Assembly (NCBI GenBank): GCA_016699145.1 | Contig: CP064962.1 | Location: forward strand, 1,110,001 to 1,142,000 | Length of the DNA: 32,000 nt | Direction: 5' to 3' | DNA from: Candidatus Saccharimonadota bacterium | GTDB taxonomy: Bacteria > Patescibacteriota > Gracilibacteria > UBA1369 > 2-02-FULL-48-14 | Shown here: in pieces, positions 10,431-29,993 of the stretch | Numbering within the stretch: position 1 is the first letter of the stretch | How the letters are laid out: each line of letters begins with the position of its first letter | Made by a program: the position numbers and the translations under genes | Notes under the pieces: model-generated | What the model saw: only the letters and a program-made list of their open reading frames with translations | The model's database searches: none | Told to the model about the DNA's origin: nothing

Positions 10431-11018
10431 ATGAATCTCAGTCCTCTTCGCCGACGAGCGTTCACTCTAATTGAGCTTTTAATTGTCATCACCATCATTG
10501 GGATTTTAGCCGTCGCGCTGATCCCAAGACTCACCGGAGGTCCCGGTCGCGCCCGCGATGCTCAGCGCCAAGCCGATTTGCAACAAATCGCAACGGCCAT
10601 GGAATTTTTGTACAACGACCGAGGGGCTTACCCCAATTTCTCTGGATGCGTCAGCGACATGACCGATCTCAGCAGCTATTTGACCACAGTACCCAGTGAT
10701 CCTTCCAGCCGCGCCGTTTCTGCCACTCACATCAGTGGAACAGGAGCTCCCACATGTTCAACAGGTTACGCGTATGTGGGCTTGAACGGAGGATCTGCTC
10801 CGACGAGCACCTATGGCACTTACAATTCCACCGGTTATTTGCTCATTGCTGATTTGGAAACAGAAACCACACGTGGGCAATCCATTTATGGAGGAGCCAC
10901 CGCCTTTGCCTTAACCTGGAATGCAACGGCAGCCAGCAATTTCAGCAGCAACTCTACTAAATTGTGTAGCAGTTCTTCGTGTACCGCGACCAATGTTTGG
11001 TTGATGTCCGGACGATGA
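10431..11018 (+). CDS. Type IV pilin / pseudopilin (class III signal peptide, GspG-like N-terminal helix)
   Basis: From the ATG at 10431 the protein reads MNLSPLRRRA-FTLIELLIVITIIGILAVALIPRL...ARDAQRQADLQQIATAMEFLYNDRGAYP. This carries the prepilin motif with Glu at +5. It has 195 aa, four Cys residues and a Ser/Thr/Gly-rich globular part. The track ORF start at 10302 overlaps pilC and would bury the signal peptide. Confidence 0.9.
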   Translation: MNLSPLRRRAFTLIELLIVITIIGILAVALIPRLTGGPGRARDAQRQADLQQIATAMEFLYNDRGAYPNFSGCVSDMTDLSSYLTTVPSDPSSRAVSATHISGTGAPTCSTGYAYVGLNGGSAPTSTYGTYNSTGYLLIADLETETTRGQSIYGGATAFALTWNATAASNFSSNSTKLCSSSSCTATNVWLMSGR

Positions 11019-11055
11019 TCTCAAGCTAGAAGCCATCTCAAAAAATCCAATTAAA

Positions 11056-11080
11056 GCCCTTCCCAGCGAGGGGCTTTTTT
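11056..11080 (+). terminator. Rho-independent terminator after the pilin gene
   Basis: GCCCTTC (11056-11062), CCAGC loop, GAGGGGC (11068-11074, with one G-U pair), then TTTTTT (11075-11080). Confidence 0.7.
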
Positions 11081-17100: not shown

Positions 17101-18235
17101 AAGTGTAACGGAGGCCACTTTGACTCTCTACGATCGTTTTGGAAACGTGGCCAATTATGAGACGTATTCAGTGACTTTAGACAGCAATGAAGTGACCTTG
17201 CTCGACTTGACGGATGAAGACAACGAAACGCCCGGTTACCAAATCCGCATACAAAATGGAACGCAAGCTTTCCGCGTGCTTTCAAGCGTGGAGGCATCGA
17301 CAGGAACAATAATGGCAGCACTCACCGAGCAGCCCGATATTCAAGACAACATTGAATTGAATTCCGTGGAAGGACTGAATGTGAACGTGAGTCTTTCGGC
17401 TCCGTATCTTTTTGCTGGATCAGAAGGGACTCAAGAAGTGCTCATCACTGTGACCGATGCAGAGGGAACGCTGCAAACCGGTTTTCAGGGCGAAGTGAGC
17501 ATGAGCACCAGCGATCCCAATCACGGTCATTTTGATGAACCGACATTTTCTTTGAGTGAAGGCAGTGCCGCCGTGACCCTGACTGCCGGCACCTTGGCCG
17601 GCAACGGAGCAGTGCTGGTAGAAAGCGCGGGTTTGCAAACCGGCAGTGCAAATTTAGAAGTGAAACCCGCCGAGATTTACGAGTTGCGCATTCGAAAAGA
17701 CGACGGAGCGATGCGGGCTCAAGCAGGGGAACTAGAATATTTTTGGGTGGAGGGCTATGACGTGTACGGCAATCGTGTCACCACCGATAGCACAACCACA
17801 GGCACCTTACGGCTCACAGAAGCCAGCGCCGATTATGCCACTCTTTCGAGCGCCATTTTTCAACTGAATCAAGGCGCCGATCGCTTTGGCGTGCAAGTCG
17901 GCGAAGTCAGTGGAAGGCTCAGCATTGTGGCCAGTGCCCCTGCACTTTTGGCGGGAACTTGGGGTGGAAACATTGAATATTTCACAACAGGCGAGGAGCT
18001 GAGTGGCATGCAGCCTCAAATGCTCTATGCCAATGTTTTAGGAGCTCCTTTTGGAAATGTAAATGAAGAAAATTACGTGGCGGGTTGGCTGCTCTTCAAT
18101 GAAAAACTCAAGCCATCAGCAGTTTGGTTTCTGAGCCAAAACCCCATAAACCTTTGGCTTCTGTGGATGCTGAAGGAAACATCACACTGGCCGAAGATGG
18201 ACTGCTCACTCAAGTCGTGGAAGGCGCAGCAATGA
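11180..18235 (+). CDS. Giant secreted/cell-wall-anchored mosaic surface protein, part A (real coding probably ends at the frame break near 18102-18106)
   Basis: The N-terminal signal or anchor is MNPHATPRSTRLIVLAILFTLFASFLPMV. Asp-rich Ca-binding repeats include DDDGDGLVDED, DNDGDGLVDED and DSDGDGYPNGLETVLGTDPAD. Ig-like repeats are present. An SLH triplet begins FTDIDGSHEAYYALATLYLRGIVKGYSDGTFRPDNPITREEF (15895-16450). Four invasin-type Ig-like repeats span 16760-17960. Confidence 0.9.
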   Translation: MNPHATPRSTRLIVLAILFTLFASFLPMVRVTEALSIIGRAQLELSGNPGGGLNEIRSVSPVETRYDLVVILVDEEIWSSSSSGSGFFSFLGTAALNEKIQRYAEDVQSALPWTKSMIVTVSPGDSTVDIQRFLEKLYFEGNAEDSDATRLAGVVAVGQVPLPVVNKNGYRFVSLLPYTDFEEPAYIVDEASQDFVLNTGAQNLQAEVWHGVLVPPLGGQDGVDLLAAYFDKNHAFHSGEEEYIRFDEKVFIADFVTESHTLNSVAYGAYERYTNLWEDLAYYRYTNDLIEEVFTEMQSTVNSGDMLDNDFDGNYDEEASNNMDDDGDGLVDEDLGDGFFGIDNDGDGLVDEDGSADNNNDEDHLTDEDPPGDANADGCAGYCGKDDNGDASDSDGDGYPNGLETVLGTDPADESEPWKSVLTFSNAEPYSFNFSTADEATDYWAAAFTDQFFAGNGLDSSCYSNGAYHPEWDDDEDGFCDEDGSIEMPAGAFCAYNDADCDGTVDEDTQGLQPRALFENLPDLQSKKLLEGLTKKYVELFSEPQGVWNRVVRGTGRYEAQALDSNERALSDYDTPISLISKKDEYTLEYLRAVNDTLESLTNDLVNEELARQIPVIGMMELSGTYTAEEEDSEAQAICTAGEAADLTSDACLQFFNSGSSDGVFDSVDLPHNSMAEYVSSNDADKIYMNGTALTDIDSPAACTLFAGTYEEDGQLSQFNAMYSTDQLDLNVNEVQDYKNCVPEFASYLDEIPELCSVATATEDIRNLGGAISADELAERIGQTPEEAASNWEVGPEACYEFREFTTYSVYLQSNGRFNDWLSKKLRKFQKDSGRDESEYEEFLERVQERREEWGPDTVTLRKHFRELDLISSSTEITYTVTDMMNDVLGYREEWNDDDIDTYLALHDEDTPIVIQNPEYGSGTEDLANITVYLNKAYLREDSESFTLDEEEAEMISSSYYHNEPNSATLNAQAATLASPNLPIDATRRVVFIDEADESQTLNYVNAFDASTVSDVQNQLDILAAAVANVSEGSTHANDVENFMDALNVHQLEDALTWYRLSIDEKHDYVLSHYLGSEEPVISKARNGYEVVSIIADGKADEMVAAFHPVDEQESDLEFIYRDLELAEAALSEDQAPSQPEPLSALSNTTPVNLWEWFPAVETWLGELRNSVNNFGTYGGGAVCGDASDFVQENGDEDGNGIPDGAEATLRLTLSSEDYSVLEAYGLNGDTYVVSVSARQADDSLNALDNNTEILLQVVSGTASAEILGSSILQLSGGVASFSIGGLEPGTFTLQASASNRENVTNSNLLSGTVEEKHLKVSTFIRENADGTVQENHSGQRIEVRNENGEVVAVLNPENGDLELRGVQAKLLEATPNLPTRVSIQDSEGRTYGVFFLIPEVKTVAIGDGYAGVFVETLDSSHEALPTDAGVGLFKDTLQMGLVTDHGQIAVSEGYRLEFENPSEINLYEPLYITNSAGERFFKVSIKHSIQQGSLVEPTGLYENHLSLKHKTWFKRALAALVIPDYDADGLDDLEEWVIGTETNLSDTDEDGYLDGTEIFSGYSPLEEEEKLFTDIDGSHEAYYALATLYLRGIVKGYSDGTFRPDNPITREEFIKIDLGAICKDCDSYESAYEEALMALYNQDPFPDENISSELLACVAEAKTSGIVSGYAGGEEAGFFLPNRQISVAEATKVLVETAGFESRTPTSNEAWYVGYVEAAQEHDLFPTNQALTREWLEGSITRAEFVMMAVNLVEAQDCRAVDNDADYLSDVEETVLYGTNPQNADTDLGGVSDFDEIVRSSDPLNAEDDFPADTSDQEQEDYSAYSSFEHEAGLYSVSSNDAYESITVNAESDSSAPNVYTNTIPADGEATLYVRAEITNLEGSIYVDDNSSIVEFVLSSSEHGRLDSNLIQVQGGVAEAVFNASQNAGELHVSAQVREGALPYEGQTIEVYAGQPTSMNLALESTVLPMGGQSVTEATLTLYDRFGNVANYETYSVTLDSNEVTLLDLTDEDNETPGYQIRIQNGTQAFRVLSSVEASTGTIMAALTEQPDIQDNIELNSVEGLNVNVSLSAPYLFAGSEGTQEVLITVTDAEGTLQTGFQGEVSMSTSDPNHGHFDEPTFSLSEGSAAVTLTAGTLAGNGAVLVESAGLQTGSANLEVKPAEIYELRIRKDDGAMRAQAGELEYFWVEGYDVYGNRVTTDSTTTGTLRLTEASADYATLSSAIFQLNQGADRFGVQVGEVSGRLSIVASAPALLAGTWGGNIEYFTTGEELSGMQPQMLYANVLGAPFGNVNEENYVAGWLLFNEKLKPSAVWFLSQNPINLWLLWMLKETSHWPKMDCSLKSWKAQQ

Positions 18236-21200
18236 CCTTGCCCACGCGCATGCAATGGCGCTCTTTCCCTGACCAAATTTTGCAAGCTGAACTCTTTTTT
18301 GTGCATGGAGAAGCAGCCGTTTATGAGGCCCATTTAGTGGAAGAAAACAATGCCTACAGTCTTTTGGAAGAAGACGGCGTCACTTCGCTTTTGAAAAATT
18401 CAGGCGTGCTAGCAAGAGTGCGTGCCGATGGACAAATCGAACTCCTCGATCCCAGTCTCTACTTGATTGTGAATGCCGCAAATCAAGGCCTGAGCTTGGC
18501 CGTGATGGAGAATGGACAAGCCGTGCTTCAAGTCAATTATGAAAGAGTTTGGGAAGAAGACGTGACTTTGCTGGAAAGCGATCATGACCTCACTGATTGG
18601 TCCAGCTTGAACGCGGGCATTTACATCAAACCCACCGCAGACAATGAGCATGCTTTCGAACCCATTTCTAGCGGCAACAGTTCTTTGAGCCCTCAAGGCT
18701 TGGCCTTGGTGGATCCTACGGAAGAATTGCCCAAAGAAATGCAGGCTTCCCTGGGCTACACTTCTTTAGATCAAGCAGAAGAAGATGGAACTGTGGGTTG
18801 GGAAAAAGAGAATAAAAATCTGCTGCTATTCAGTGCTGGGAACACTGCAGGCGTCTCGAATCTTTTTTATGTTTCGGAAGTCGGAATACTGCTGGGCGAC
18901 CCCACGGTGAGCTTGCCAACCGCCAATGAAGCCAACAGTTTAGGTTTCACCGAAGATGTGGGGACACTGATTTCTGCTTCCCAAGATGAGATTTTAGAGC
19001 TCGTGGATATCGATTACAACGGCGATGGACAAATGGACGTGCTGGTGGCTTACGAAGACGGACGCATTGAAGTTTTGCAAAATCACCAAGCCGCGCAGCG
19101 TTTGCGTTCTCGCGGAACATTGTTGAAAATTGAAAATGGAATCCGTTCCATCGATAAAGGGGACTTCAATGCCGATGGACTAACCGATCTGTTGATCGTC
19201 ACAGAAGAATCTTGCTATGCCGATGAAATGTGCCTTTATGAATACGACAACATTGGCGGTGGTTTTGTAGCTAAAAATTTAAGTTTTTCAGACATTGCAG
19301 CTCAGCCCGAGCAAGTGGAAGTCAGCGATTTGAACAACGATGGTTATGATGATTTGGTTCTGGCCGATGAAAACATGGTTTTGTACACGGTGTGGAACAG
19401 CGCGGGCGGTTTTTATGCGGTGGATGAGATCAAAGATTTTGGACTGCACAGCGACTCCAGCATAGATTTGGCCTCTCAAATGCTCTTGCGCTACAGCGGT
19501 TTGGACAGCGGTTCCGTATCCTTACCCATAACGGTGGATGCTCGTGACACCGGCAATGCTCAATTGGACCGCTTTTTAAATGCTGTGGATACAGCCAGTG
19601 CTTTCACTTTGGAAACCGATGGAGAAAATGGGGGAGGGCTGGAGCAAAAAGCAGACACCCTTTTTGAACATGCCAATGCCGAAGTTTTCAATGATGTGTT
19701 TTCCGTCAGCAAGTCCATGTCCGATGAAAATGGAGGCACAGCTGAAGTAGGGGATGAATTGACCTACACACTCACGCTGCAAAACATTTCAGGAACAACG
19801 CTCAACAACATTTATATTTCAGACACCGTGGATGCGGTCTTCCAATTCAATGCCGAAAGTTTGACCTGCAGCGATTGCAGCGCAGTGAACCTCAGTGAGG
19901 CACAATTTGTCCCCGCAGATGCCACTCGACCTTTTGTGTTTGGCCCCCTCGACCTTGCAAACGGAGCGGATCTAACTTTGACTTATCATGCAGAATTGAT
20001 GCACTTGCCGCAACTTGCTTTGATGGTGGGCAACGATTTATTTGGAGATTATGTGGACGACGACCGGCCCGATATTGGAGTTTCATTGGATGGAAACACC
20101 ACCGGAGAACTGATGGTTTATTACTCCGATGGCAGTTATACAGAAACCTTGGAAGAAGGAATTTTGGGTTCCGATTTAGGAGCCATGACCGTAGAGCATG
20201 TGCATTATGCCGAAAGAAATTATTCGCCCAGCACTTATGCCGAGGAGCATGAAACCGAACGAGCCAGTCCTTTTGAAGATGCCGATGAAGACGGTGTCCC
20301 CGATTTCATGGGTGAAATGGATCCGGAATTGGGCATCCCTGTACCGGACAGCGGTTACGATGCCGTTGCCGAAGTGTTAGGGGGAAGTGATCAAGATGGA
20401 AATGGATATTATTCCAGTCAGGAAATGTTCAGCAGCGACGTGGATGCGGACAACGATGGTCTTTACGATACCATCGATCGATCCAATGCAGGCGAAGGAT
20501 TGATTTTAGATCCGGCCTTGGATTTACTCGTTGGGGAGGGTGCAGAAATCGATGCCGAAGTCGCTCTTTTGGATGAACAAATTTCCGGCCTCACCAATCA
20601 AGTAGAAGAAGTTGTTTCCAGCTTCACTTGCGATGGCGGCTGTTTGGCCTTGCCGGGTAGTGTGGCTTTCTTAGCCAGTGGTACTTTTCACGATCCTTTC
20701 ACGGGAACGCCTTTGGGTTACGACGTCGGTACACCAGTCTTTGGCATCATGCCCAATCCTAGTTATGTGTGCACCGCCACCGCCTGCCAAGCCACCAGCG
20801 TGCTGCGCATTTACATTGCCCCAACCACCACGCTCGGTCTCGGCCTCGGAGTCTGTGTTGCTCCTTACGCCGTGGGTCAATGTTACGCTTTCAATATACC
20901 ACTTTTACAAGCCCTAGGAGTCTGTGATGCCATCAATGGATTCGTAGCGGACTCCCTTTCAAAAGCCAGTGATTTTGTAGAAGAAAATGGAACCGTGGCT
21001 TTGAATGTCCTAGGGTCTTCTGGTGGAACCGTGGCTGCCCCAAGTGGGCTTTCCAGTTCATCGTACGCAAACTACAGTCCGCCCCTTTCCACTCAAACCA
21101 ACATCGACATACCCGGCTTTCCTTCTGTTTTCACAGAATGGTGGAAGGCTCAAAAAATGGAGTTTTTCAAAATGTTGGATTTGCCAGATATCACCTTCAT

Positions 21201-24200
21201 TTATCCTGATCCGAAAAGCCTTTCTTCCGAGTTTGGTGGCATACGTCAAAGGGCCCAAGAAGAATCGGTGAGCTTGGATCAGGCAAGCAATCCCATGGTT
21301 TTGGATCACGAAATCAAGATTCAAGAAATGAGCAGTGGAATTTTAAATTTAGACAAGTGGTTGAACATGGCTCATGCACTTCCGATCATCGATATCCAAA
21401 CCGAAAAAGTCTACATCCACTACCCTGCTTTGACGGAAGAAGAAGTAGAAATTTTTCAAAAAGACATGGGAGAGTGGACGGTTCGTACAAAGAGCAATTT
21501 TGCCATTTTCAAAGAGCAATTTGAATTGCGCCGCTTGGCAGGCGAAGAAATTTCTGCCGCAGAAGAGCAGGCTTATGATGAACTGGTGCTTGCGGTGGAT
21601 GAGGCCATTACGGCGGTGGAGAGCAACATGGCCATTTTAGAGTCTTATAAAGACATCCCTGAGCAAATTTTGGAAATCCGAACTATGCAAGCGCAGTATG
21701 CCAAAGTCATTGTTTGTTATTTGGACGCCATCTTGGATTACACGGCTGGATATTTAAGTGAAAATTTACAACGAGTGGAAGCGTGGGCTCAATTCGTAGT
21801 CGATCTGCGCGACGTGGTGGATGGATGGCAAGTGCTCATCGATTTGTCCGCGGATTTCATGGACTCTTGTGATAAATGCACAAATCAACGCTACAGCGGT
21901 TTACAATTGCTCTTCAGCCTCTTCGTTTTCATGCCGGAATTTCCGGTGGTGGAATTGCCTAAACTCCCCGACATCGTCATCGATGTGTCTCATATTCAAG
22001 CGGGAGTAGACATCCTTTGGCCCGACATTGAATTTGTCCCGGAACGCATTGACATCCCTGAATTGCCCGAATTGGTTTTCCCCTCGGCACGATTCAACTT
22101 AGACACGGAACTGGACATCGATTTGGATATCCCGACTCTGCCCGAATTCCAATTGAATTTTGAGTTGCCACAACTTCCTGCGTTGACTTTGCCTGAGCTG
22201 CCTTCGCTGCCCCCGCCCCCCAGCATTCCAGAATTGGATCCCACTTTAAAAGCCTCTCTCGAAGTTGCCAGCAATGTTTTGAAACTGGTGTGCATCATCC
22301 GTTCAGGTTTTATTCCTACGCCAGAAAGCCAACTCAAAGCCCGCATTGAAGAAATCACAGAGCGTCCCGGTGGCACCTTTGTGGCCGCAGATTTTGCAAG
22401 CACCGTGGAATGGCCTGCCTTCAACTATGACTTTTTGAAACGCATCGAAATCAATACCTATTTGAATTTGAATGCCGACTTCACTCCTCTCTTCGATGTG
22501 ATGGAACATTTGGGGGCTCAAACCGAAGAATTGAGTGAAAACACGGCAGAAGGAATTTCGGGTCCTTTACAAGATTTGGCCAATGAAATTCAAGAGGCAC
22601 TCACAGGTGCCGGTGAAAACACCAGCATCGATATCGATGCAGAATTGAATGTGGATTTGGAAAGCTATGTGCATCCGGCGGTTCAAACGGCTGAACTTTA
22701 TAAAGACGATCCTTTGGTGCAACAAAATTTAATAGCCTTGCAGCAAGTCATGCATTCCTTACAAAGCCAAATCGATGCTTGGGCCAAAGATTTGCCAGAA
22801 GAAGTGCGCTTGGAGGCTACCGATCGACTTTTGGCCTTGGATGATCCATTGCTGAATCGTTACGACGAAATCGCAAAAGAAAATCCCAACTTAGACCCTG
22901 AATTTTTAGCCAGCATTCAAGAAACGCCACTCGTAGGTGTATTGAATTTGAAGAATTCTCTTTTGGCGCATGTTCAAAATCTGGATGCAGAAAACACCCG
23001 CCTATTGGTCATGGACGATGAAAATTTCTTCCGAACTTTGGCTGCCGAATCGTCTTCCTCTCATTTTGAACTCGCAGCGACTCAAGAAGAAGGATACAGC
23101 ACGGCAGCTGAATGGAATTTAAACGCTCTTAAAAAAACCTCCTTGGATGAAGTAGAATTGAGCACCGAAAGCGGAGCACCCGAAATAGAATCCTTGGATT
23201 TGGAAGTGCAAAATCAGGCCTTCAATACGGGGCTTTACATTTACAATGCAGAAGCAGATGTGAGCACTCGCCTCACGGCCTATGCAGCCGAAACCGACGA
23301 GACCACTCATATTTTGTTCATGGACGTGGATCAAGATGGCGATGAAGATGTGATTTATTCATTGGGAGGCGATGTCTACATCAAAGAAAATCACAACGAA
23401 AGTCCCCGTTTGCAGTACGTGAGCACCGATCCTTCGGAAGTAACGCTTTCCGAAGAATTGCCCGCAGCCGGCTCCATGCAAAAATTTGAGGAAAAGAAAA
23501 ACACTCATGGAGAAAGCAGTTTTGCGTTTGGAGCTTCCTATGAAGCAGTGGGTTATGAGTTCACCATGTACGATTCCCTCGACGCTCAAGAGGCAGCTCC
23601 CAATGAAAATGTGAAACGTTTGCTTCTTTTATCGGAGGAAGAAAATCTCAAAGGAGTTTGGTCATCGGAAGGAGATTTTACTGCAGAAACTTCTGGGAAC
23701 CCCGCCATGCCCAGCGTTGCAATGAGTCGATTGGTTGCCACTGCAGTGAGTGGCAATGTGCAGCTTAAAAACGGAGCCGCACGCACTTTCATTCACGACA
23801 ATGCCGAATGGGAAACGAGTGAACCCGTGCTGCTGCAAACCGTGAGTCCGGCGGTCTTGGAGCTGACTTACGAAGAAAGTGAAGCTCGTTTGGAAGTCCC
23901 AGCCTACACGGTTTTGAGTTTTGGAAATGATGTGGGGCGGCGCATACGTTTAGAAAGTGGAGAAGCTTATATGATTGATCCAGACACATTTCTGACAGAA
24001 CAAGATTTAGAGGAAGGCATGATGATTTTTGCTGGAGAAATAGTGGATTTAGAAACGTCAAACGCCGAGGCAACACTGTCGACTACGGAAGGAGGAGTCT
24101 TCCATTTGGATGAGGAAGAAGTCTTTGTGATGGATCGTTTACTCAGTCCAGAAAGCCCTTCTGCACAAGTTCAGCTTGAAAATGGAGCGTACTACACGGT

Positions 24201-26160
24201 GGGCCGGGCTCTCTACGGCGATGGCAATTCAAGCACTCTTTCTGATAATATTCTGCTCAACCCTCAAATTTGTGGCGATGATTCCGAGCCCATGATCATT
24301 TCACCAGATCGTTTGGATTTAGCCATCTTCTCCACCACTGATATTTCTGCGGATCAATCCTTCGATAGCACGAGTGAAATCATCGATGCATATTGGGATC
24401 TGGATGCCAATGTGGATGCCGATGGAGATGGAGAATTCACCAACGATGAAGAGCGTTTCGGATTGAACACCAGCATTGGTCCCTACACCGATTTAGAACC
24501 CAAAACAGTCACCCTTCACGTGGTGGATTCAGCAGGAAACATCGCTCGCAGAAGCATTGAAGTGAACTTGTACGTGCCTGCCATTGAAGTACACACGGCC
24601 ACTCCCGAAGTCGTTGCAGGAGGCACCGATCCTTCCAGCCCCCATTTCCCTTTCACCTTGGTGCGTGAACGCGAAGGAACTTTAAAAGAATTGGGCGCCT
24701 ACATGACAGATGAAGACGGCAATTTCATACTCCCCATGCAGAATTCAGATTTGCTTGCCGTTTATAACGCCGAGGGCCTGTCCATTGCCGAATTCAATCC
24801 CTTGACCAAGCAAGTCCAAATTTTAGATGAAGATTATGAGGTGAGGTTCATCACCGCTTCTGAAACGTGGCCTTCTCATCTTGCAGTGTATGAAAAATCC
24901 ACAGGCATTGTGATGGGTAATTTTATTTTCGTCACCGATTCCAGCTTGCCGATCACTCGTTTGGGAACCCCGCTTTCAGACTATGATTTGAGCACCTTAA
25001 ATCGTGTCACGGTTCACAGTGTGAACGACCCCAACGGTTATGATTTTGCAAACACTTCCATCACCGCTTACGATGAACTTGGGAACTTAGATTTCAAGCT
25101 CAGCAACACCGGGAACATCACCGTATTTGACTCACGTTACACTGTACTGCGTCGCGAAGCCGATTCGCTTGAAGATCCTTTGATTTTGGAAGTTTATGAC
25201 GAAGGCACTTTGGAGTTGGAAATCTGGCCCGGCATGGACAGCACTGTCTATTTAGAAACCACCGATGATTTGAATTTGCCGGCCTCTGCCCTCATTGAAA
25301 ACCATGGGTCTTCCACTCAAGACACGGAGCTTTATTTTGAAGACATTGATGCCGATGATCCTTTGTATGAAAAAATCACAGAACTCGTGCAGCGAAATGT
25401 GCTCGAAGGTTATGAAGTGGATGGCGATCGTTACTTTAAACCTGACAATCAAATCAACCGTGCCGAATTCACAAAAATCATTTTGAGTATTTTGTGCATT
25501 GTTCCTCGCGACGAAGCGGAAATTTTACCCGCTGTCTTCAACGATATTTTGAATGAATCTTCATGGTATTATCCCTATACAAAAGAGTCTTATTTATCGG
25601 GACTCATCACGGGTTATCTTGGTGAAAAAGATGCGACAGGATTGACTCCTTTTAAACCAGAAAACACCATCACCAGGGCCGAAGCGAGCAAAATTGTTTT
25701 GGAGGCATTGAATGCAGAAGGAGTGATTCGTTTGCCCGATCTGCAAAGCGACGGTGCATGGTACGAACCTTATATGGAAATTGCACAAGATTTAAGCCCC
25801 TACATGACGGGGGAAAGCACCGCGGGAACCAGCAATCATCTGCTCACTGCAGAAGAAGCTGCTCTGCCCAACCACGTGCTCACTCGCTATGAATTTGTAG
25901 AAATGTCCGTGCGCGTGCTGCAAGCCTACAATTGTTTTGCACTGGAAACTCCAAGCGATTATTTCAATGATGAAACCGAATGGCTACCCGGAATTCATGC
26001 GCTGCGTGAAGCGTGCAACACTTGTCCTTGTGTTTCTCAAGTGGATTATGCAGCAGAACTTAGACCGGGTGACTTTGTATTTGCTATAATCCAAAATGAA
26101 TGGGGTGAAATCTTTGGAGTGAGCCCCTCGGTAGAAATCCTTGCCCCTTCCTCGCCATGA
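18124..26160 (+). CDS. Giant mosaic surface protein, part B (frame open from 18103; most likely a continuation of part A)
   Basis: There is no ATG, signal peptide or promoter at its 5' end. FG-GAP/VCBS repeats are present (DYNGDGQMDVLVAYEDG, GDFNADGLTDLLIV, SDLNNDGYDDLVLAD). A DUF11-like segment reads GDELTYTLTLQNISGTTLNNIYISDTVD. A PKD-like domain spans 24340-24580. A C-terminal SLH triplet begins FEDIDADDPLYEKITELVQRNVLEGYEVDGDRYFKPDNQINRAEF (25334-25935). Confidence 0.9.
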   Translation: MVSEPKPHKPLASVDAEGNITLAEDGLLTQVVEGAAMTLPTRMQWRSFPDQILQAELFFVHGEAAVYEAHLVEENNAYSLLEEDGVTSLLKNSGVLARVRADGQIELLDPSLYLIVNAANQGLSLAVMENGQAVLQVNYERVWEEDVTLLESDHDLTDWSSLNAGIYIKPTADNEHAFEPISSGNSSLSPQGLALVDPTEELPKEMQASLGYTSLDQAEEDGTVGWEKENKNLLLFSAGNTAGVSNLFYVSEVGILLGDPTVSLPTANEANSLGFTEDVGTLISASQDEILELVDIDYNGDGQMDVLVAYEDGRIEVLQNHQAAQRLRSRGTLLKIENGIRSIDKGDFNADGLTDLLIVTEESCYADEMCLYEYDNIGGGFVAKNLSFSDIAAQPEQVEVSDLNNDGYDDLVLADENMVLYTVWNSAGGFYAVDEIKDFGLHSDSSIDLASQMLLRYSGLDSGSVSLPITVDARDTGNAQLDRFLNAVDTASAFTLETDGENGGGLEQKADTLFEHANAEVFNDVFSVSKSMSDENGGTAEVGDELTYTLTLQNISGTTLNNIYISDTVDAVFQFNAESLTCSDCSAVNLSEAQFVPADATRPFVFGPLDLANGADLTLTYHAELMHLPQLALMVGNDLFGDYVDDDRPDIGVSLDGNTTGELMVYYSDGSYTETLEEGILGSDLGAMTVEHVHYAERNYSPSTYAEEHETERASPFEDADEDGVPDFMGEMDPELGIPVPDSGYDAVAEVLGGSDQDGNGYYSSQEMFSSDVDADNDGLYDTIDRSNAGEGLILDPALDLLVGEGAEIDAEVALLDEQISGLTNQVEEVVSSFTCDGGCLALPGSVAFLASGTFHDPFTGTPLGYDVGTPVFGIMPNPSYVCTATACQATSVLRIYIAPTTTLGLGLGVCVAPYAVGQCYAFNIPLLQALGVCDAINGFVADSLSKASDFVEENGTVALNVLGSSGGTVAAPSGLSSSSYANYSPPLSTQTNIDIPGFPSVFTEWWKAQKMEFFKMLDLPDITFIYPDPKSLSSEFGGIRQRAQEESVSLDQASNPMVLDHEIKIQEMSSGILNLDKWLNMAHALPIIDIQTEKVYIHYPALTEEEVEIFQKDMGEWTVRTKSNFAIFKEQFELRRLAGEEISAAEEQAYDELVLAVDEAITAVESNMAILESYKDIPEQILEIRTMQAQYAKVIVCYLDAILDYTAGYLSENLQRVEAWAQFVVDLRDVVDGWQVLIDLSADFMDSCDKCTNQRYSGLQLLFSLFVFMPEFPVVELPKLPDIVIDVSHIQAGVDILWPDIEFVPERIDIPELPELVFPSARFNLDTELDIDLDIPTLPEFQLNFELPQLPALTLPELPSLPPPPSIPELDPTLKASLEVASNVLKLVCIIRSGFIPTPESQLKARIEEITERPGGTFVAADFASTVEWPAFNYDFLKRIEINTYLNLNADFTPLFDVMEHLGAQTEELSENTAEGISGPLQDLANEIQEALTGAGENTSIDIDAELNVDLESYVHPAVQTAELYKDDPLVQQNLIALQQVMHSLQSQIDAWAKDLPEEVRLEATDRLLALDDPLLNRYDEIAKENPNLDPEFLASIQETPLVGVLNLKNSLLAHVQNLDAENTRLLVMDDENFFRTLAAESSSSHFELAATQEEGYSTAAEWNLNALKKTSLDEVELSTESGAPEIESLDLEVQNQAFNTGLYIYNAEADVSTRLTAYAAETDETTHILFMDVDQDGDEDVIYSLGGDVYIKENHNESPRLQYVSTDPSEVTLSEELPAAGSMQKFEEKKNTHGESSFAFGASYEAVGYEFTMYDSLDAQEAAPNENVKRLLLLSEEENLKGVWSSEGDFTAETSGNPAMPSVAMSRLVATAVSGNVQLKNGAARTFIHDNAEWETSEPVLLQTVSPAVLELTYEESEARLEVPAYTVLSFGNDVGRRIRLESGEAYMIDPDTFLTEQDLEEGMMIFAGEIVDLETSNAEATLSTTEGGVFHLDEEEVFVMDRLLSPESPSAQVQLENGAYYTVGRALYGDGNSSTLSDNILLNPQICGDDSEPMIISPDRLDLAIFSTTDISADQSFDSTSEIIDAYWDLDANVDADGDGEFTNDEERFGLNTSIGPYTDLEPKTVTLHVVDSAGNIARRSIEVNLYVPAIEVHTATPEVVAGGTDPSSPHFPFTLVREREGTLKELGAYMTDEDGNFILPMQNSDLLAVYNAEGLSIAEFNPLTKQVQILDEDYEVRFITASETWPSHLAVYEKSTGIVMGNFIFVTDSSLPITRLGTPLSDYDLSTLNRVTVHSVNDPNGYDFANTSITAYDELGNLDFKLSNTGNITVFDSRYTVLRREADSLEDPLILEVYDEGTLELEIWPGMDSTVYLETTDDLNLPASALIENHGSSTQDTELYFEDIDADDPLYEKITELVQRNVLEGYEVDGDRYFKPDNQINRAEFTKIILSILCIVPRDEAEILPAVFNDILNESSWYYPYTKESYLSGLITGYLGEKDATGLTPFKPENTITRAEASKIVLEALNAEGVIRLPDLQSDGAWYEPYMEIAQDLSPYMTGESTAGTSNHLLTAEEAALPNHVLTRYEFVEMSVRVLQAYNCFALETPSDYFNDETEWLPGIHALREACNTCPCVSQVDYAAELRPGDFVFAIIQNEWGEIFGVSPSVEILAPSSP

Positions 26161-26738
26161 ATCTATTTTTGAATCAAAAACGTTTTATTCAAAGCAGCCT
26201 CGTTGTGCTTCTTCTTTTGAGCTCCACCCTGTGGGTGCAAGCCGATGAGAGCAATTCTTTAGAACTGTACGGAGTTGAAGATTATGCCTGTGCTGCAAAT
26301 CTTGCCGCTGCGGCCGCTCCCATTTTGGAAAATTATGAAAACGTTATGGATCAGTATATGAAAGTGGATGAACCCACGAGTGAACAATTTGAAAATGCCT
26401 TCATGCTTTATCGTTACGTCGAAGACAGCATTCAAGAAGAGTATCAAAACAACGCAACAACTTTGGGGGTCAATAAAAGTTTGTCTTTTTCAAATGAAGA
26501 ACTTTCCGTATGTCGAAACATGCGCGATCAACTGCTTGAATATTCCCGCAGCTTCATTTCCATTTTTATATCCGGTGCAAGTGCATCCAAAACCACCTTT
26601 GAATTTGTGGATGGTTTAAAGTCCATGAATGCCGATTTGAAAGACATGTCTCTTTTATTTCAACGCACTTTTCCAGGTCAATTCGTAGAAATGTCCAATG
26701 CTCTCCCTTGCTACGCTCATCAATGCCTAACTCAATGA
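26157..26738 (+). CDS. Secreted helical protein P1 (193 aa), member of the C-terminal-Cys set
   Basis: The ATG overlaps the giant-gene stop (ATGA at 26157-26160). The signal peptide is MNLFLNQKRFIQSSLVVLLLLSSTLWVQA. The protein ends ...ALPCYAHQCLTQ. Confidence 0.85.
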   Translation: MNLFLNQKRFIQSSLVVLLLLSSTLWVQADESNSLELYGVEDYACAANLAAAAAPILENYENVMDQYMKVDEPTSEQFENAFMLYRYVEDSIQEEYQNNATTLGVNKSLSFSNEELSVCRNMRDQLLEYSRSFISIFISGASASKTTFEFVDGLKSMNADLKDMSLLFQRTFPGQFVEMSNALPCYAHQCLTQ

Positions 26739-27352
26739 AATCTTTTTTCATTCAATACGGACCTTACTTTCTTCTCGCCTTTATAGTCGGTTTTCTTTTC
26801 CCTCGCCTGAGTGCAAGCAGTGTGCAAAGTGCCGCGATCAATTACGATGCCATGGAAAACATGGACGAAATGATTTTGGCTTTTCATACTGACATGAATA
26901 CCACCACCAATCTTTATTTAGAGCGGATGTTTGAAAACCCTCAGCCCAATGTGCTTTACCCCGCCGCCGCTTCTGGATGCGACGATGAAAATTTATCCAC
27001 CTATTGTCTGGCCGTGGTCTTGAACGAAAAATTATTGGCCTTTGAAACCGCAATGCTGAGTCGTAAAGACAGCCTCGCAGATTTGGATGGATCTGTTTCT
27101 TCGGAAGAAGCGACTCAATTTGCCAATCAACAAGTCTTGGTGGTGAACGAACAGCTCCAAAATGCAGAAGCCGCCTTGGACTTAACACTTTCCACTTACA
27201 ACCAAGTTCAAATGGTTTATCCGCTGCATCTAGAGATGGAAAATTTCCGGGCAAATCTAGAAAATTTTCGAGACAATTTAGCAGCCGTGCGGGACGTGGT
27301 TGAACTTTATCCTTCTAAATTCAATGGAGCCAGTACGGCTCAGTGCAAATGA
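26735..27352 (+). CDS. Secreted or anchored helical protein P2 (205 aa), C-terminal-Cys set
   Basis: ATGA overlap with the P1 stop (26735-26738); alternative starts are ATG 26723 and TTG 26708. The hydrophobic N-terminus is MKSFFIQYGPYFLLAFIVGFLFPRLSAS. The protein ends ...GASTAQCK. Confidence 0.85.
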   Translation: MKSFFIQYGPYFLLAFIVGFLFPRLSASSVQSAAINYDAMENMDEMILAFHTDMNTTTNLYLERMFENPQPNVLYPAAASGCDDENLSTYCLAVVLNEKLLAFETAMLSRKDSLADLDGSVSSEEATQFANQQVLVVNEQLQNAEAALDLTLSTYNQVQMVYPLHLEMENFRANLENFRDNLAAVRDVVELYPSKFNGASTAQCK

Positions 27353-28944
27353 AGCGATTTTTACTTCTTAGTTTCGGTCTTCTCATCAGCGCTACTTTGG
27401 GCTTGAAATGGGGTGAAGTTACCTTTGCCGTAAGTCGCTCCGAAGATTTATTGCAGACCCTTTTAAATGAAGAAAATATCACGGTAACAAACAGCAAAGA
27501 CCCTAAGGAGCTGCGTGCTTTGGCGTCGAATGAAGAACTGCCCTTTCAAAATTTGTATCTTTTCATGTTTCAAAACGTCAGCGACGGACCCTCAGAAGCT
27601 GCTTTGGAAGAATTACAAACGCGTTTGAGTATCGAAGCTTATCGCAATTACACAAACAATGAATTGGAACAAATCGTAGTGGAAGGCAATTTAAAGCCCA
27701 TCATTGAAAAACTGGATTCCGATTCTCGAGAAGAAATTTTAGAAGAATACACTTATTTGGTGGATCTCTATCAAAATGAATTGGAACTGCAAAGAGAATT
27801 TAGAAAATTTGCCTACGAAGCCGTGGCGGATGAAATGTTTTTCAACAACGATTTGAATGACTCCGCGAACATCGACATTTTGCACGATTTGGATTTGGCG
27901 CATTACGTGCTCTTCGGTTCCGTCATTGAGTACCCAGATCGCAGTGGGGAAGAAGCCGTGGATTTGGCTTCGGAGCAAAATCCCGAGCTCACGGAGCCGG
28001 TAGTGACTTTGAGCTCAGACGCAATCAGTCCTTACACCTGTTTCGATGATGTGGCTTTGCGCGAAGCTCTCGAAGTTTATTACGAAGCCAATCCCGAAAG
28101 TGAAGAAGAAAGGGAGGGAAGTCAGGGGGGAACAAATTCCTCTTCTGGGGGAGATGTAAATGAAGCAGCAGAAGCAGAGCAAGCCGAAGACATTTTAGAT
28201 GATTTGGATGAATTCATTGCCGATTTACAAGGCACCCCCGGGGACTGGAGCCGCTCCTTGCCTTGCAACGAAATTTTTTGTATCACCGTGGATCTTGTGA
28301 GCGATACGGAAGATCCCGTTTCAGAAAACAATTATGAGCCCACTTCCAATTGCGTGCTCTGTCATCTTTCTTACATCAATCAACGAATGGAAGAGACTTT
28401 GAGCAAAAGTTTGGTAGCCAACAAACCCTCTCAAAATTGGTTTGAAGATGCCACCTGTAAAGAAGCCGGTTCTCAAGTGGATTTAGACTTCAATGTATAC
28501 TTGGTGCCCATGCCCATTGAATTGGACCCTGGGGATGACATTGAGGAGCGGCCTACCGAGCGCATTGCTGAATTGCAAGAAGCGTTGATTTCTTTAGGGC
28601 ATTTTGCTCCAAGAAAAAGTGCTTTCGATCGTGCAACGGAAGACCTTGAATGTGAAAGCATTCTCCATTTATACGACGCAGCCGATTCCGCTGTTTCTAT
28701 CGAAAAAATCCAAGAGGCCTGCGTCGTCGCTGCCGCCGATGCCCAAGCCCAAGTGGATGAAGTTTTTGAAAAACTCAATTTTGAAGCCAGAGCAGAAAAT
28801 CAAAATATGCTTTACGAACAAGCCTCTGCCGAGCTTTACACCATGCTGCTGCTTTTCCAAAATATTCAAGCTGGGTTTCAGCAAAGTTACCTCACTGATG
28901 ACGCTCCGCTCGCCCATTTAATGTCTAAAAATTATTGCAAATGA
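27349..28944 (+). CDS. Secreted acidic helical protein P3 (531 aa), C-terminal-Cys set
   Basis: ATGA overlap with the P2 stop (27349-27352); the track start is GTG 27343. The signal peptide is MKRFLLLSFGLLISATLGLKWGEVTFA. It has an internal Cys cluster (LPCNEIFC...SNCVLCH) and ends ...MSKNYCK. Confidence 0.85.
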   Translation: MKRFLLLSFGLLISATLGLKWGEVTFAVSRSEDLLQTLLNEENITVTNSKDPKELRALASNEELPFQNLYLFMFQNVSDGPSEAALEELQTRLSIEAYRNYTNNELEQIVVEGNLKPIIEKLDSDSREEILEEYTYLVDLYQNELELQREFRKFAYEAVADEMFFNNDLNDSANIDILHDLDLAHYVLFGSVIEYPDRSGEEAVDLASEQNPELTEPVVTLSSDAISPYTCFDDVALREALEVYYEANPESEEEREGSQGGTNSSSGGDVNEAAEAEQAEDILDDLDEFIADLQGTPGDWSRSLPCNEIFCITVDLVSDTEDPVSENNYEPTSNCVLCHLSYINQRMEETLSKSLVANKPSQNWFEDATCKEAGSQVDLDFNVYLVPMPIELDPGDDIEERPTERIAELQEALISLGHFAPRKSAFDRATEDLECESILHLYDAADSAVSIEKIQEACVVAAADAQAQVDEVFEKLNFEARAENQNMLYEQASAELYTMLLLFQNIQAGFQQSYLTDDAPLAHLMSKNYCK

Positions 28945-29993
28945 AAATAAAAAAACTCAAATTCCTTATTCTTTTTTGCTTGGGGGCCACACTTCCATTG
29001 ATGCAAGTTTTACCCGCACCCGCTCAAGCCGCAAGCTTCACGTGCATGAACAATTACTACGATTTCATTCTCAACGTCAATTCTGAAAACTTGCGCAGCG
29101 AAAATCTAAAAGACATTTTTACCTTGGGCTACTGTCCCCTCAATGACATCCTGCTTTTGGATGATGAGTTGGACACACTGAAAACCAATTTTAGAAATGC
29201 CGCCAACGCTTGCGAATCCACTCTTATTTACGAAGAAGACTATGAACGTATCCTTATGGAGATGTATTTTGTACGCCATCTTCAAGCAGGGGAAGCCTTG
29301 AATGCAGTGGATGCCGCCCAACTGGAACAGCTTACAACAGAAAAATTAAACACTTTAAAAAAAGAAATGAAGACTGCTTTTGTGGACATAGAGCAGCGTG
29401 TGGATGAATCCACTTTCAACCGTTATTTTGAACAATGGACTTTCAAATATGAAGACCGAGTGGCCAATTATCGAAACTGTGAAGAAGGTCCTTGGGCCGA
29501 ACTCACAGTCACTTGGGAAGACTTCACCGAAACCATCCAAGAATTAGATTTTTCAGTGGAAAGAAATGAACATGAATCCTTAAAAGAAATTTTGATTCCT
29601 AAAGTGGACGTGGAAGCCGATGAAGACATGACGGCTCTGGGCAATAGCATCAAAAACGTTTGGAATTATTTAAAAACCAAGAAAGAAAAAAACAGAGCGA
29701 ATATCGATCCTGCCTTGAGCGTTTCAGAATTGACTGTGGCAGGAGGATCAGTGAGTTTTGATGAGGCTCTGGAGCAATTGAATTCCAGTGTTTCAGAATA
29801 CGATTTGGAGCTACGCAGCGCCGACCGCATGAGTGAATACGAAATCCTATACGGGGCAGGGGGCTCCGTGCAATCCACCAACCTCCAAAGCATTATGCTA
29901 GCCCTCAATGAAGTGTTGACGGAAGTCAACAATAAAGACCTTCCCAGCATCGCTGGAAACACCGCCCTGATTTCGGACAAGCAGTGCAATTGA
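28941..29993 (+). CDS. Secreted helical protein P4 (350 aa), C-terminal-Cys set
   Basis: ATGA overlap with the P3 stop (28941-28944); the track start is TTG 28935. The signal peptide is MKIKKLKFLILFCLGATLPLMQVLPAPAQA. The protein ends ...LISDKQCN. Confidence 0.85.
   Translation: MKIKKLKFLILFCLGATLPLMQVLPAPAQAASFTCMNNYYDFILNVNSENLRSENLKDIFTLGYCPLNDILLLDDELDTLKTNFRNAANACESTLIYEEDYERILMEMYFVRHLQAGEALNAVDAAQLEQLTTEKLNTLKKEMKTAFVDIEQRVDESTFNRYFEQWTFKYEDRVANYRNCEEGPWAELTVTWEDFTETIQELDFSVERNEHESLKEILIPKVDVEADEDMTALGNSIKNVWNYLKTKKEKNRANIDPALSVSELTVAGGSVSFDEALEQLNSSVSEYDLELRSADRMSEYEILYGAGGSVQSTNLQSIMLALNEVLTEVNNKDLPSIAGNTALISDKQCN

What the first reader, a model, noticed from the sequence alone, without database searches (positions are those of the whole stretch)
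26157..29993. Four translationally coupled secreted helical proteins ending in a conserved C-terminal Cys motif: an unrecognised tandem paralogue family behind the giant gene
P1 to P4 (193, 205, 531 and 350 aa) each begin with a Sec-type signal or anchor. They are rich in Glu, Leu, Asn and Gln with helical character. Each ends with Cys at the C-terminal -2 position, or -4 in P1: ...AHQCLTQ, ...STAQCK, ...SKNYCK, ...SDKQCN.

The DNA at the gene ends is nearly identical: CAGTGCAAATGA for P2, TATTGCAAATGA for P3 and CAGTGCAATTGA for P4. In P2 and P3 this sequence encodes Cys-Lys-stop and the next gene's ATG at once. The last gene has lost the ATG through a single A-to-T difference. That pattern is what tandem duplication of a gene unit would leave behind.

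All four junctions, including giant-to-P1, are ATGA overlaps, which implies obligate co-expression with the giant protein. I recognise no known family, enzyme motif or pilin signal in any of them. Each mature protein also has additional Cys residues nearer the N-terminus. A near-terminal Cys is therefore compatible with disulfide linkage, either to each other or to the Cys-rich segments of the giant protein. That linkage is speculation.
Basis: partly seen in the sequence, partly recalled or inferred. Interest (0 to 1): 0.78.

Follow-up and report, generated by a model that had tools for sequence, protein, structure and literature searches.

The report
Four cysteine-tailed partners of a giant surface protein
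Behind a 5,000-residue cell-surface protein of a Peregrinibacteria (CPR) bacterium lie four secreted proteins of unknown families; they are not duplicates of one another, but the way their tail cysteines are lost in matched pairs across about 80 related genomes suggests that they are joined into one complex.

Summary
P1-P4 (26157-29993) are four tightly packed genes. Each has a Sec-type N-terminus and a Cys 2-4 residues from the C-terminus, and all junctions are ATGA overlaps.

The window is a Candidatus Peregrinibacteria MAG. The order giant SLH/FG-GAP protein -> P1 -> P2 -> P3 -> P4 recurs in about 80 loci, and the P3 family has 333 cluster representatives.

The 'tandem paralogue' reading is not supported. 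BLASTP finds nothing, and hhalign gives at most 8% probability with the tool and at most 25% with broader alignments. The similar gene ends simply encode [Q/Y]-C-[K/N]-stop.

None of the four families matches Pfam, NCBIfam or PDB. P2 models as a helical bundle with a floppy Cys tail.

The new result is cysteine parity:
- The tail state predicts odd or even Cys counts in P1 (79/79), P3 (76/79) and P4 (68/71).
- P1, P3 and P4 flip parity in compensating pairs. The sum is even in 59 of 61 loci, over at least 11 state changes on a P3 tree.
- P2 is odd in 82 of 85 loci.
- The giant's C-terminal domain carries an invariant C-x2-C-P-C in 65 of 65 loci.

This pattern suggests paired tail cysteines between subunits. 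In this window the predicted link is P3-C530 to P4-C349. Function is inferred only: a surface complex, possibly for attachment.

The parts
11180..26160 (+). Giant surface-protein gene of about 5,000 codons. It has an N-terminal signal or anchor, TSP3, invasin D3, two SLH domains, FG-GAP repeats and DUF11. In this assembly it is split into two ORFs by a 1-nt deletion in the A5 run at 18102-18106.
   Evidence: Pfam hits. tblastn shows that relatives' single giant proteins run straight across the frame change at about 18080-18148. Relatives have a single gene of 3485-5456 aa, given as called product lengths; the genes run off the fetched loci.
25984..26157 (+). C-terminal domain of the giant protein with an invariant C-x2-C-P-C (CNTCPC, 26014-26031).
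   Evidence: The motif lies in the last 120 residues of the upstream long ORF in 65 of 65 loci. No Pfam or NCBIfam match.
26157..26738 (+). P1, 193 aa, secreted. Core Cys are C45 and C119. The tail is LPCYAHQC, with C185 (26709-26711) and C190 (26724-26726), read as a local C-x4-C loop.
   Evidence: ORF and junction. Conservation. Tail state predicts Cys parity in 79 of 79 orthologues.
26735..27352 (+). P2, 205 aa, a secreted helical bundle. Core Cys are C82 and C91. There is a single tail Cys, C204 (27344-27346).
   Evidence: AlphaFold2 model with pLDDT 83.9; the tail 197-205 has low confidence. Exactly 3 Cys in 21 of 21 Peribacteria loci and an odd count in 82 of 85 loci overall. Foldseek against PDB finds no hit with E below 0.3.
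27349..28944 (+). P3, 531 aa, secreted, the most conserved subunit. It has eight core Cys, including the CxxCH-like NCVLCH at 28348-28365 and the pair C435/C458. There is a single tail Cys, C530 (28936-28938).
   Evidence: 41 close homologues. 333 cluster representatives at E <= 1e-3. Alignment. A single tail Cys goes with an odd total in 60 of 60 sequences, and a tail loop with an even total in 66 of 69.
28941..29993 (+). P4, 350 aa, secreted. Core Cys are C35, C65, C91 and C180; C35 and C91 are lost together in L001 and L017. There is a single tail Cys, C349 (29985-29987).
   Evidence: Distant orthologues carry a C-x8-C tail loop with 6 Cys, or no tail Cys with 4 Cys.
11053..11077 (+). Terminator-like hairpin plus T-run between the pilin gene and the giant gene. 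It suggests that giant plus P1-P4 is its own transcription unit.
   Evidence: This is a consensus scan only.
6084..11018 (+). Neighbouring type IV pilus genes: PilM/N-like, an unknown 191-aa protein, the PilB ATPase, the PilC platform protein and a pilin with an N-methylation motif.
   Evidence: Pfam. The same genes sit next to the module, on the opposite strand, in the distant locus L029.

Best explanation
P1-P4 are four unrelated, Sec-exported accessory proteins of a conserved five-gene module. So far the module is seen only in Peregrinibacteria-type CPR bacteria; the named relatives are Peregrinibacteria, Peribacteria, 'Gracilibacteria' and Patescibacteria MAGs.

**Shown.** The first gene encodes a protein of about 5,000 residues that carries SLH cell-wall-anchoring domains. 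The four genes that follow are tightly packed. Each small protein has a disulfide-paired core and a short C-terminal tail carrying one or two cysteines.

**Inferred: ancestral state.** P1, P3 and P4 close their tails with a local disulfide loop: C-x4-C in P1 and C-x8-C in P3 and P4. P2 has a single tail Cys.

**Inferred: what changed.** In several lineages one Cys of a loop was lost in two different proteins at once. The two orphaned tail cysteines then probably pair across subunits. If so, the tails of P1, P3 and P4 lie side by side in one extracellular complex.

**Inferred: this window.**
- P1 keeps its loop (C185-C190).
- P3-C530 and P4-C349 are the two orphans and are predicted to form an intermolecular disulfide.
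- P2-C204 pairs either with a second P2 or with the giant protein's invariant C-terminal C-x2-C-P-C.

**Inferred: stoichiometry.** The tight packing suggests coupled translation and matched amounts.

**Inferred only from context.** The complex is held at the cell surface by the SLH-anchored giant protein. It may serve attachment to other cells, possibly together with the adjacent type IV pilus.
For: **Synteny.**
- The order giant -> P1 -> P2 -> P3 -> P4 is found in 21 Peribacteria loci including the window. It is also found in four distant loci.
- Among the 76 distant loci screened with family HMMs (those four plus 72 metagenome loci), 40 hold all four genes. No locus shows another order.

**Separate families.** HMMs built from the Peribacteria families find 59, 66, 63 and 50 orthologues in those distant loci.

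**Tail state against parity.**
- P1: 79 of 79 consistent.
- P3: 76 of 79 consistent. Over the wider family, loop goes with even in 66 of 69, single with odd in 60 of 60, and none with even in 15 of 17.
- P4: 68 of 71 consistent.

**Compensation.** In 61 loci with complete P1, P3 and P4 the parity triples are:

| P1, P3, P4 (1 = odd) | loci |
|---|---|
| 0, 1, 1 | 22 |
| 0, 0, 0 | 18 |
| 1, 1, 0 | 14 |
| 1, 0, 1 | 5 |
| 1, 0, 0 | 2 |

- The sum is even in 59 of 61 loci, and all three possible pairings occur.
- On a neighbour-joining tree of P3 the triple changes at least 11 times by Fitch parsimony, from an inferred all-even root. The only odd-sum states are two single leaves. A crude binomial gives p of about 0.01.

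**Within-protein co-losses that calibrate the method.** P4 C35 and C91 are lost together in 2 loci. P3 C435 and C458 are lost together in 8 loci.

**P2 and the giant protein.** P2 is odd in 82 of 85 loci. The giant's C-x2-C-P-C is present in 65 of 65 loci. The P2 tail is unstructured in the model.

**Plausibility.** A published analysis of Peribacteria genomes reports large Cys-rich extracellular proteins and one disulfide-bond-formation protein (PMC4736985).
Against: - No biochemical or structural evidence exists. Disulfides are inferred from counting cysteines.
- Parity would look the same if the orphaned thiols shared a metal ion, or if they paired between two copies of the same protein.
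- Two loci break the rule: L026 and L067.
- The phylogenetic correction is crude: a neighbour-joining tree of one protein, Fitch parsimony and a binomial test.
- The window's giant protein has 38 Cys, an even number. That does not favour a single P2-to-giant bond.
- In L070, P2 lacks its tail Cys while the giant's motif is unchanged.
- The P3 model is poor (pLDDT 57.7), and P1 and P4 were not modelled. The geometry is therefore unknown.
- Signal-peptide cleavage was judged by eye.
- The link to the type IV pilus rests on two loci only, and a terminator-like site separates the operons.
- An adhesion function is pure inference.
Confidence: 0.6

Rival explanations
1. Tandem paralogue family. On this view P1-P4 arose by duplication of one gene unit, and the shared 3' end (TGC-AAA-TGA) is a relic of the duplicated unit.
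For: - All four share a signal peptide, a tail Cys and tight coupling.
- With broad alignments, hhalign aligns P1 and P2 end to end with P = 8e-4.
Against: - That P1-P2 alignment has 24.7% probability, 10% identity and near-zero similarity. The tool's hhalign gives 1.2%.
- All other family pairs score at most 18%. BLASTP finds nothing.
- Lengths differ from 193 to 531 aa and the core Cys patterns differ.
- The shared 12-mer is explained by the codons for [Q/Y]-C-[K/N]-stop. Orthologues use other codons and other stop codons.
Confidence: 0.08
2. There is no covalent complex. Each protein is an independent secreted protein, and its tail thiol is free, binds a metal ion, or pairs with a second copy of the same protein. 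The compensation between proteins reflects shared ancestry or chance.
For: - Parity alone cannot distinguish a disulfide from a shared metal site or from homodimers.
- Most loci of each type belong to a few clades.
- Two exceptions exist.
Against: - Homodimers or free thiols would not require that a parity flip in one protein be matched by a flip in another. Yet single-odd states are limited to two terminal leaves against at least 9 compensated switches.
- All three pairings (P1+P3, P1+P4, P3+P4) occur, but never one protein alone as a clade-wide state.
Confidence: 0.17
3. P1-P4 are transient assembly or export factors for the giant protein, or extracellular parts of the neighbouring type IV pilus machine. 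On this view they are not stable subunits of a surface complex.
For: - The four genes are strictly linked to the giant gene.
- Type IV pilus genes lie next to the module in two distant lineages.
- Giant adhesins elsewhere need co-transcribed helper proteins, for example sprCDBF in Flavobacterium. This comes from my own knowledge and was not checked here.
Against: - None of the four has a prepilin (class III) signal or an N_methyl match.
- P2 is a helical bundle, not a pilin fold.
- A terminator-like site separates the pilus operon from the module.
- One-to-one gene coupling and paired tail cysteines fit stable subunits better than catalytic helpers.
Confidence: 0.15

Closest known systems
PilY1 plus four minor pilins (FimU/PilV/PilW/PilX), the tip or priming complex of type IVa pili
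   Same: Both combine a large protein carrying beta-propeller-type repeats with four small co-encoded proteins, next to type IV pilus genes. Here the large protein has FG-GAP repeats. Many pilins end in a C-terminal disulfide loop, the D-region. The description of the PilY1 system comes from my own knowledge.
   Different: P1-P4 have ordinary Sec-type N-termini with no G|FxxxE prepilin motif and no N_methyl match. P2 is an all-helical bundle. The small genes follow the large gene instead of preceding it. The large protein is about five times longer and is SLH-anchored.
Operons of a giant adhesin with small accessory genes, for example sprC-sprD-sprB-sprF of Flavobacterium johnsoniae
   Same: In both, a very large surface protein is co-transcribed with a few small proteins of otherwise unknown family that it needs to function. 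The spr description comes from my own knowledge.
   Different: There is no sequence relation. The secretion route differs: Sec in a CPR cell here, T9SS there. No Cys-tail logic is known in those systems.
Polymers and complexes joined through a near-terminal cysteine: the penultimate Cys of the IgM/IgA tailpiece with J chain, and Bacillus Ena spore fibres with Cys-bearing terminal connectors
   Same: In both, a flexible terminal peptide presents a Cys a few residues from the chain end and makes inter-subunit disulfides outside the cytoplasm. The comparison comes from my own knowledge.
   Different: The proteins and organisms are unrelated. Here the cross-links are only inferred, and the partners appear to have been rewired between lineages (P1-P3, P1-P4 or P3-P4).
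Large Cys-rich extracellular proteins of Peribacteria (Anantharaman et al. 2016, PMC4736985) and giant surface proteins of Vampirococcus (PMC8080830)
   Same: They come from the same group of organisms and the same class of giant FG-GAP/DUF11 surface proteins. They were proposed to mediate attachment and noted alongside type IV pili.
   Different: The passages found by term search in those papers do not mention the four downstream genes, their order or their tail cysteines. Neither paper was read in full.

Membership tests
Single paralogous family comprising P1-P4 | Detectable sequence or profile similarity between the four proteins | tested here: not met
   The best BLASTP E-value is 0.03. 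hhalign gives at most 8% probability with the tool and at most 24.7% with 71-85 sequences per family.
Single paralogous family comprising P1-P4 | The same fold in all four proteins | not testable with these tools
   Only two structure jobs were allowed. P2 modelled well and P3 poorly. P1 and P4 were not modelled.
Type IV pilins and minor pilins | Class III signal peptide with an N-methylation motif (Pfam N_methyl; G|F/M-x-x-x-E) | tested here: not met
   Pfam finds N_methyl in the true pilin at 10302-11018. It finds it in none of P1-P4, nor in the orthologues of P1, P2 or P4 scanned singly. The N-termini lack Glu at position +5.
Type IV pilins and minor pilins | Alpha/beta pilin fold with a long N-terminal helix packed on a sheet | tested here: not met
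   The P2 model is an all-helical bundle. Its Foldseek matches, all with E above 0.3, are helical bundles. Only P2 was tested.
c-type cytochromes (considered for P3) | A CxxCH haem-attachment motif | tested here: inconclusive
   N-C-[IV]-A-C-H is at least 90% conserved across the family. The His is replaced by Asn in P0019, P0021 and P0023. The Cys pair is lost together in P0027 and P0035. No cytochrome family matches in Pfam, NCBIfam or PDB.
c-type cytochromes (considered for P3) | A cytochrome c maturation system (Ccm or Ccs) in the genome | not testable with these tools
   Only 32 kb of the genome is available, and none is encoded in the window.
Sec-exported proteins | An N-terminal signal peptide with a basic n-region, a hydrophobic h-region and a small-x-small cleavage site | tested here: inconclusive
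   Present by eye in all four proteins and in their orthologues. No signal-peptide predictor was available. The cleavage site of P2 is unclear.
SLH-anchored cell-surface proteins (the giant protein) | S-layer homology domain(s) | tested here: met
   Pfam SLH scores E = 4.8e-19 in the first half and 1.5e-10 in the second half. Precomputed SLH hits, some of them faint, are listed for the giant genes of L001-L003, L028, L029 and L031; nothing is on record for L030.

The most novel reading that the evidence does not exclude
The giant SLH-anchored protein and P1-P4 together build a previously undescribed surface organelle of Peregrinibacteria. Four unrelated secreted subunits would dock through their C-terminal Cys tails, with P2 on the giant protein's invariant C-x2-C-P-C domain. 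Evolution would have repeatedly rewired which tails are covalently joined. The organelle would work with the adjacent type IV pilus in attachment to host or partner cells.
Probability: 0.3. Interest if true: 0.8.

Novelty: categorically new. Interest (0 to 1): 0.62.

Why it matters
CPR bacteria are thought to live attached to other cells, and their giant surface proteins are the usual suspects. Almost nothing is known about how those proteins are built or what they bind.

This work defines a compact five-gene module that is conserved across Peregrinibacteria. It identifies four orphan protein families that always travel with the giant protein.

It also gives a concrete and cheap prediction: specific tail cysteines form inter-subunit bonds, here P3-C530 with P4-C349. 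That turns a block of 'hypothetical proteins' into something testable by co-expression and non-reducing gels, or by multimer modelling.

The method may be useful elsewhere. Compensating cysteine parity between neighbouring secreted proteins could serve as a signal of physical contact in uncultivated organisms.

Tried and rejected
- **Paralogy of P1-P4.** Rejected after BLASTP and three rounds of hhalign.
- **Gene-end DNA identity as a duplication scar.** Rejected. Orthologues show that it is only the coding of [Q/Y]-C-[K/N]-stop, with varying codons and stop codons.
- **Known families.** Pfam on the four proteins and on members of the P1, P2 and P4 families gave only scattered noise. NCBIfam gave nothing. 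PDB profile searches gave no match for P3 and only weak chance-level matches (best E = 0.0017) for the other four profiles.
- **Alternative genetic code (UGA = Gly, as in Gracilibacteria and SR1).** Considered because every junction uses TGA. Rejected because the ORFs are open under code 11 with no in-frame TGA in about 5,000 codons.
- **P2's N-terminus as a conserved membrane anchor.** Considered because L14, F16 and G19 are invariant in close relatives. Dropped because distant orthologues have ordinary, unconserved signal peptides.
- **Minor pilins.** Rejected; see the membership test.
- **Exact look-up of P4.** It failed, probably because the stop codon was included in the reference.
- **Metagenome scan with a 76-sequence alignment.** A 24-sequence subset worked.

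Full report
**What is in the sequence**

| protein | coordinates | length |
|---|---|---|
| P1 | 26157-26738 | 193 aa |
| P2 | 26735-27352 | 205 aa |
| P3 | 27349-28944 | 531 aa |
| P4 | 28941-29993 | 350 aa |

Each junction, including giant/P1, is an ATGA overlap. P4 ends CAGTGCAATTGA. All four begin with a basic then hydrophobic N-terminus and carry a Cys 2-4 residues from the end.

P3 is identical to NCBI protein IPG41_06245 of a Candidatus Peregrinibacteria MAG, on a 1.34-Mb contig. P2 and P4 are the neighbouring IPG41_06240 and IPG41_06250.

**Surroundings**

Upstream lie ribosomal protein L10 and a type IV pilus set. The set comprises a PilM/N-like gene, a 191-aa unknown, the PilB ATPase, the PilC platform protein and a pilin with an N-methylation motif. 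A terminator-like hairpin follows at 11053-11077.

Next come two huge ORFs, 11180-18235 and 18124-26160. They carry SLH, FG-GAP, DUF11, invasin-D3 and TSP3 matches.

In relatives the giant is called as a single gene of 3485-5456 residues. Their sequences align straight across the frame change. The break in the window is a 1-nt deletion in an A5 run at 18102-18106.

uvrA, downstream on the minus strand, is broken in the same way in an A7 run. I therefore read both as homopolymer errors of a long-read assembly. The giant is treated as one gene, 11180-26160.

**Is the tail cysteine more than chance?**

Yes.
- Among 275 ORFs of at least 150 aa in all loci held at that point, 108 have a Cys in the last four residues. 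All but five of these are P1-P4 orthologues.
- The tails are conserved family by family:
  - P1: LPCYxxxC[LIT]xx
  - P2: KFNGA[ST]TxxCK
  - P3: KxYC[KEQ]
  - P4: [DE][KR]QC[NKQ]

**Are the four proteins paralogues?**

I found no support for this.
- BLASTP between them finds nothing.
- Profile-profile comparison of 21-sequence families matches only the signal peptides.
- With 71-85 sequences per family, the best result is P1-P2 at 24.7% probability and 10% identity. P2-P3 gives 17.7% and all others are below 3%.
- The tool's own hhalign gives at most 8%.

The similar 12-mers at the gene ends are the codons for Gln/Tyr-Cys-Lys/Asn-stop. P4 orthologues end QCN, QCK or QCQ followed by TAA, TAG or TGA. 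Nothing suggests a decayed ATG.

ATGA overlaps are themselves a clade habit, at about 20-25% of junctions overall. Nearly all junctions are nevertheless overlapping or at most 20 nt apart.

**How widespread is it?**

- A genome scan found 24 loci, nearly all labelled Peribacteria, Peregrinibacteria or Gracilibacteria MAGs.
- An exhaustive profile search with P3 found 333 cluster representatives at E <= 1e-3, of which 280 have E <= 1e-10. The few that carry names are Peregrinibacteria, 'Gracilibacteria' or Patescibacteria MAGs.
- Four distant P3 relatives all sit in the same arrangement. A giant SLH/FG-GAP gene is followed by genes of about 200, 220-275, 545-610 and 360-410 aa.
- A metagenome scan added 72 loci.
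- HMMs of the four Peribacteria families find 59, 66, 63 and 50 orthologues in these distant loci. The order is always 1-2-3-4 wherever the contig allows, and 40 loci hold all four genes.
- A long ORF ends next to P1 in 65 loci.

So this is an old, fixed five-gene module made of four distinct small families.

**Known families**

- No consistent match appears in Pfam, whether on the four proteins or on members of the P1, P2 and P4 families scanned singly.
- NCBIfam gives nothing.
- PDB profile searches give no match for P3 and only weak chance-level matches for the others.
- The P2 model is good (pLDDT 83.9). It is a helical bundle with helices 43-67, 89-111 and 123-191 and a low-confidence tail at 197-205.
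- Foldseek against PDB gives only generic helical bundles with E above 0.3.
- The P3 model is poor (pLDDT 57.7) and mostly helical.
- Full-text searches found nothing describing this module. The Peribacteria genome paper does note large Cys-rich extracellular proteins, type IV pili and one disulfide-formation protein. The Vampirococcus paper discusses giant surface proteins.

**The cysteine pattern: the main new result**

*Within-protein co-losses show which core cysteines pair.*
- P4 C35 and C91 are lost together in L001 and L017.
- P3 C435 and C458 are lost together in eight loci.
- The P3 CxxC pair is lost together in two homologues.

*Each core then holds an even number of Cys, and the tail decides parity.*
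- Over 165 full-length P3 sequences:
  - a two-Cys tail loop goes with an even total in 66 of 69;
  - a single terminal Cys goes with an odd total in 60 of 60;
  - no tail Cys goes with an even total in 15 of 17;
  - only the upstream loop Cys goes with an odd total in 15 of 19.
- The same rule holds for P1 (79 of 79) and P4 (68 of 71).

*The tail states of different proteins change together*. Totals are mature Cys counts.

| type | P1 tail (total) | P3 tail (total) | P4 tail (total) |
|---|---|---|---|
| A | loop PCYxxxC (4) | loop (8 or 10) | loop (6) |
| B | single, LPGFxxxC (3) | upstream Cys only (7) | loop (6) |
| C | single (3) | none (6) | single (5) |
| D, this window and all Peribacteria | loop (4) | single (7 or 9) | single (5 or 3) |

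One further lineage, L031, has lost all three tails, leaving 2, 10 and 4 Cys.

*The statistics* (1 = odd). In 61 loci with complete P1, P3 and P4 the parity triples are 011 in 22 loci, 000 in 18, 110 in 14, 101 in 5 and 100 in 2. The sum is even in 59 of 61.

On a neighbour-joining tree of P3 the triple changes at least 11 times from an inferred 000 root. Only two single leaves have an odd sum. A crude binomial gives p of about 0.01.

*My reading.* A cysteine orphaned in one protein is matched by one orphaned in another because the two pair with each other. All three pairings occur, so the three tails probably meet at one place in a complex.

For this window the prediction is a P3-C530 to P4-C349 bond, with the P1 C185-C190 loop intact.

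**P2 and the giant protein**

P2 has an odd Cys count in 82 of 85 loci and keeps its tail Cys even where the other tails are lost. It therefore pairs outside the P1/P3/P4 set, either with another P2 or with the giant protein.

The giant's C-terminal domain has the pattern GIYxVxExC-x2-C-P-C...GDxxFAxI...SNxV. It carries three invariant Cys in 65 of 65 loci and is an obvious candidate.

Both sites are invariant, so covariation cannot test the link. Two facts do not favour it. The window's giant protein has an even total of 38 Cys. The one locus whose P2 lacks the tail Cys, L070, keeps the giant's motif.

**Function**

*Shown.* A conserved operon-like module encodes export-type N-termini, an SLH-bearing giant protein and tail cysteines with compensating parity.

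*Inferred.*
- The four proteins form a stable extracellular complex with the giant protein.
- The complex sits at the cell surface.
- It may have a role in attachment.

Type IV pilus genes neighbour the module here. They also neighbour it, inverted, in the distant locus L029. That is only two cases, and a terminator-like site separates the units here.

**Limits**

- There is no experiment behind any of this.
- Signal peptides were judged by eye.
- Only P2 has a usable model.
- The phylogenetic correction is simple.
- Metal sharing or mixed homodimers could mimic part of the parity signal.

**Verdict**

- The paralogue interpretation is wrong.
- The disulfide speculation is strengthened into a specific, testable prediction.

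The four families and the module appear to be undescribed.

Noticed in passing
window 18102-18106, within the giant gene 11180-26160: The giant gene is split into two overlapping ORFs by a 1-nt deletion in an A5 run. Relatives read ...LFNGKTQAISS... without a break. This is probably a homopolymer error of a long-read assembly rather than a pseudogene or phase variation.
   Followed up: yes
window about 31198-31204, minus strand, uvrA 30620-31953: uvrA is split into two ORFs by a missing A in an A7 run (GDGVKK|IEMHFLPD). This is the second homopolymer frameshift in 32 kb, which supports an assembly artefact.
   Followed up: partly
window 28348-28365 (P3 residues 334-339): The motif N-C-[IV]-A-C-H, a CxxCH look-alike, is at least 90% conserved over the whole P3 family. 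Its two Cys are lost together in two homologues. In the low-confidence model it sits at the start of a helix. It could be a structural disulfide, a redox-active CxxC or a haem or metal site. This was not resolved.
   Followed up: partly
window 25984-26157; CNTCPC at 26014-26031: The last 60 or so residues of the giant protein form a domain conserved in every locus, with three invariant cysteines (C-x2-C-P-C). It has no Pfam or NCBIfam match.
   Followed up: partly
window 30001-30180 and 30226-30399, minus strand: Two small convergent genes follow P4. One is a 59-aa protein with a CxxC...CxxC pattern, like a zinc ribbon. The other is a 57-aa protein resembling HTH_17. A small HTH_17 gene follows the module on the opposite strand in L001 and L003, with a second small gene beside it in L003, so it may be a regulator.
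   Followed up: no
window 26720-26738, and the P1/P2 junctions of L008, L011 and L013: In several relatives P2 seems to start at the ATG formed inside the Gln-Cys codons (CA-ATG-Y) of P1's last cysteine, giving an overlap of about 16 nt. The window has this ATG as well (26722-26724), upstream of the ATGA start.
   Followed up: partly
window 1432-2484: An IS3-like element: an integrase core (rve, rve_3) with overlapping upstream ORFs.
   Followed up: no
L029 14607-20750, compared with window 3487-10360: The block L10/L12, PilM/N-like, 191-aa unknown, PilB, PilC lies next to the module in a distant lineage too, but downstream and on the opposite strand. The neighbourhood has persisted through an inversion.
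   Followed up: partly
window 20600-22400 (giant protein, second ORF, residues about 830-1400): This central stretch of the giant protein has no Pfam match. By eye it is recognisably conserved in the distant L028 giant. Examples are SCDxGCxALP..., IPGFPS...W and CDKCxxxR followed by a hydrophobic segment and Pro-rich repeats. It could be a membrane-associated or core region.
   Followed up: no
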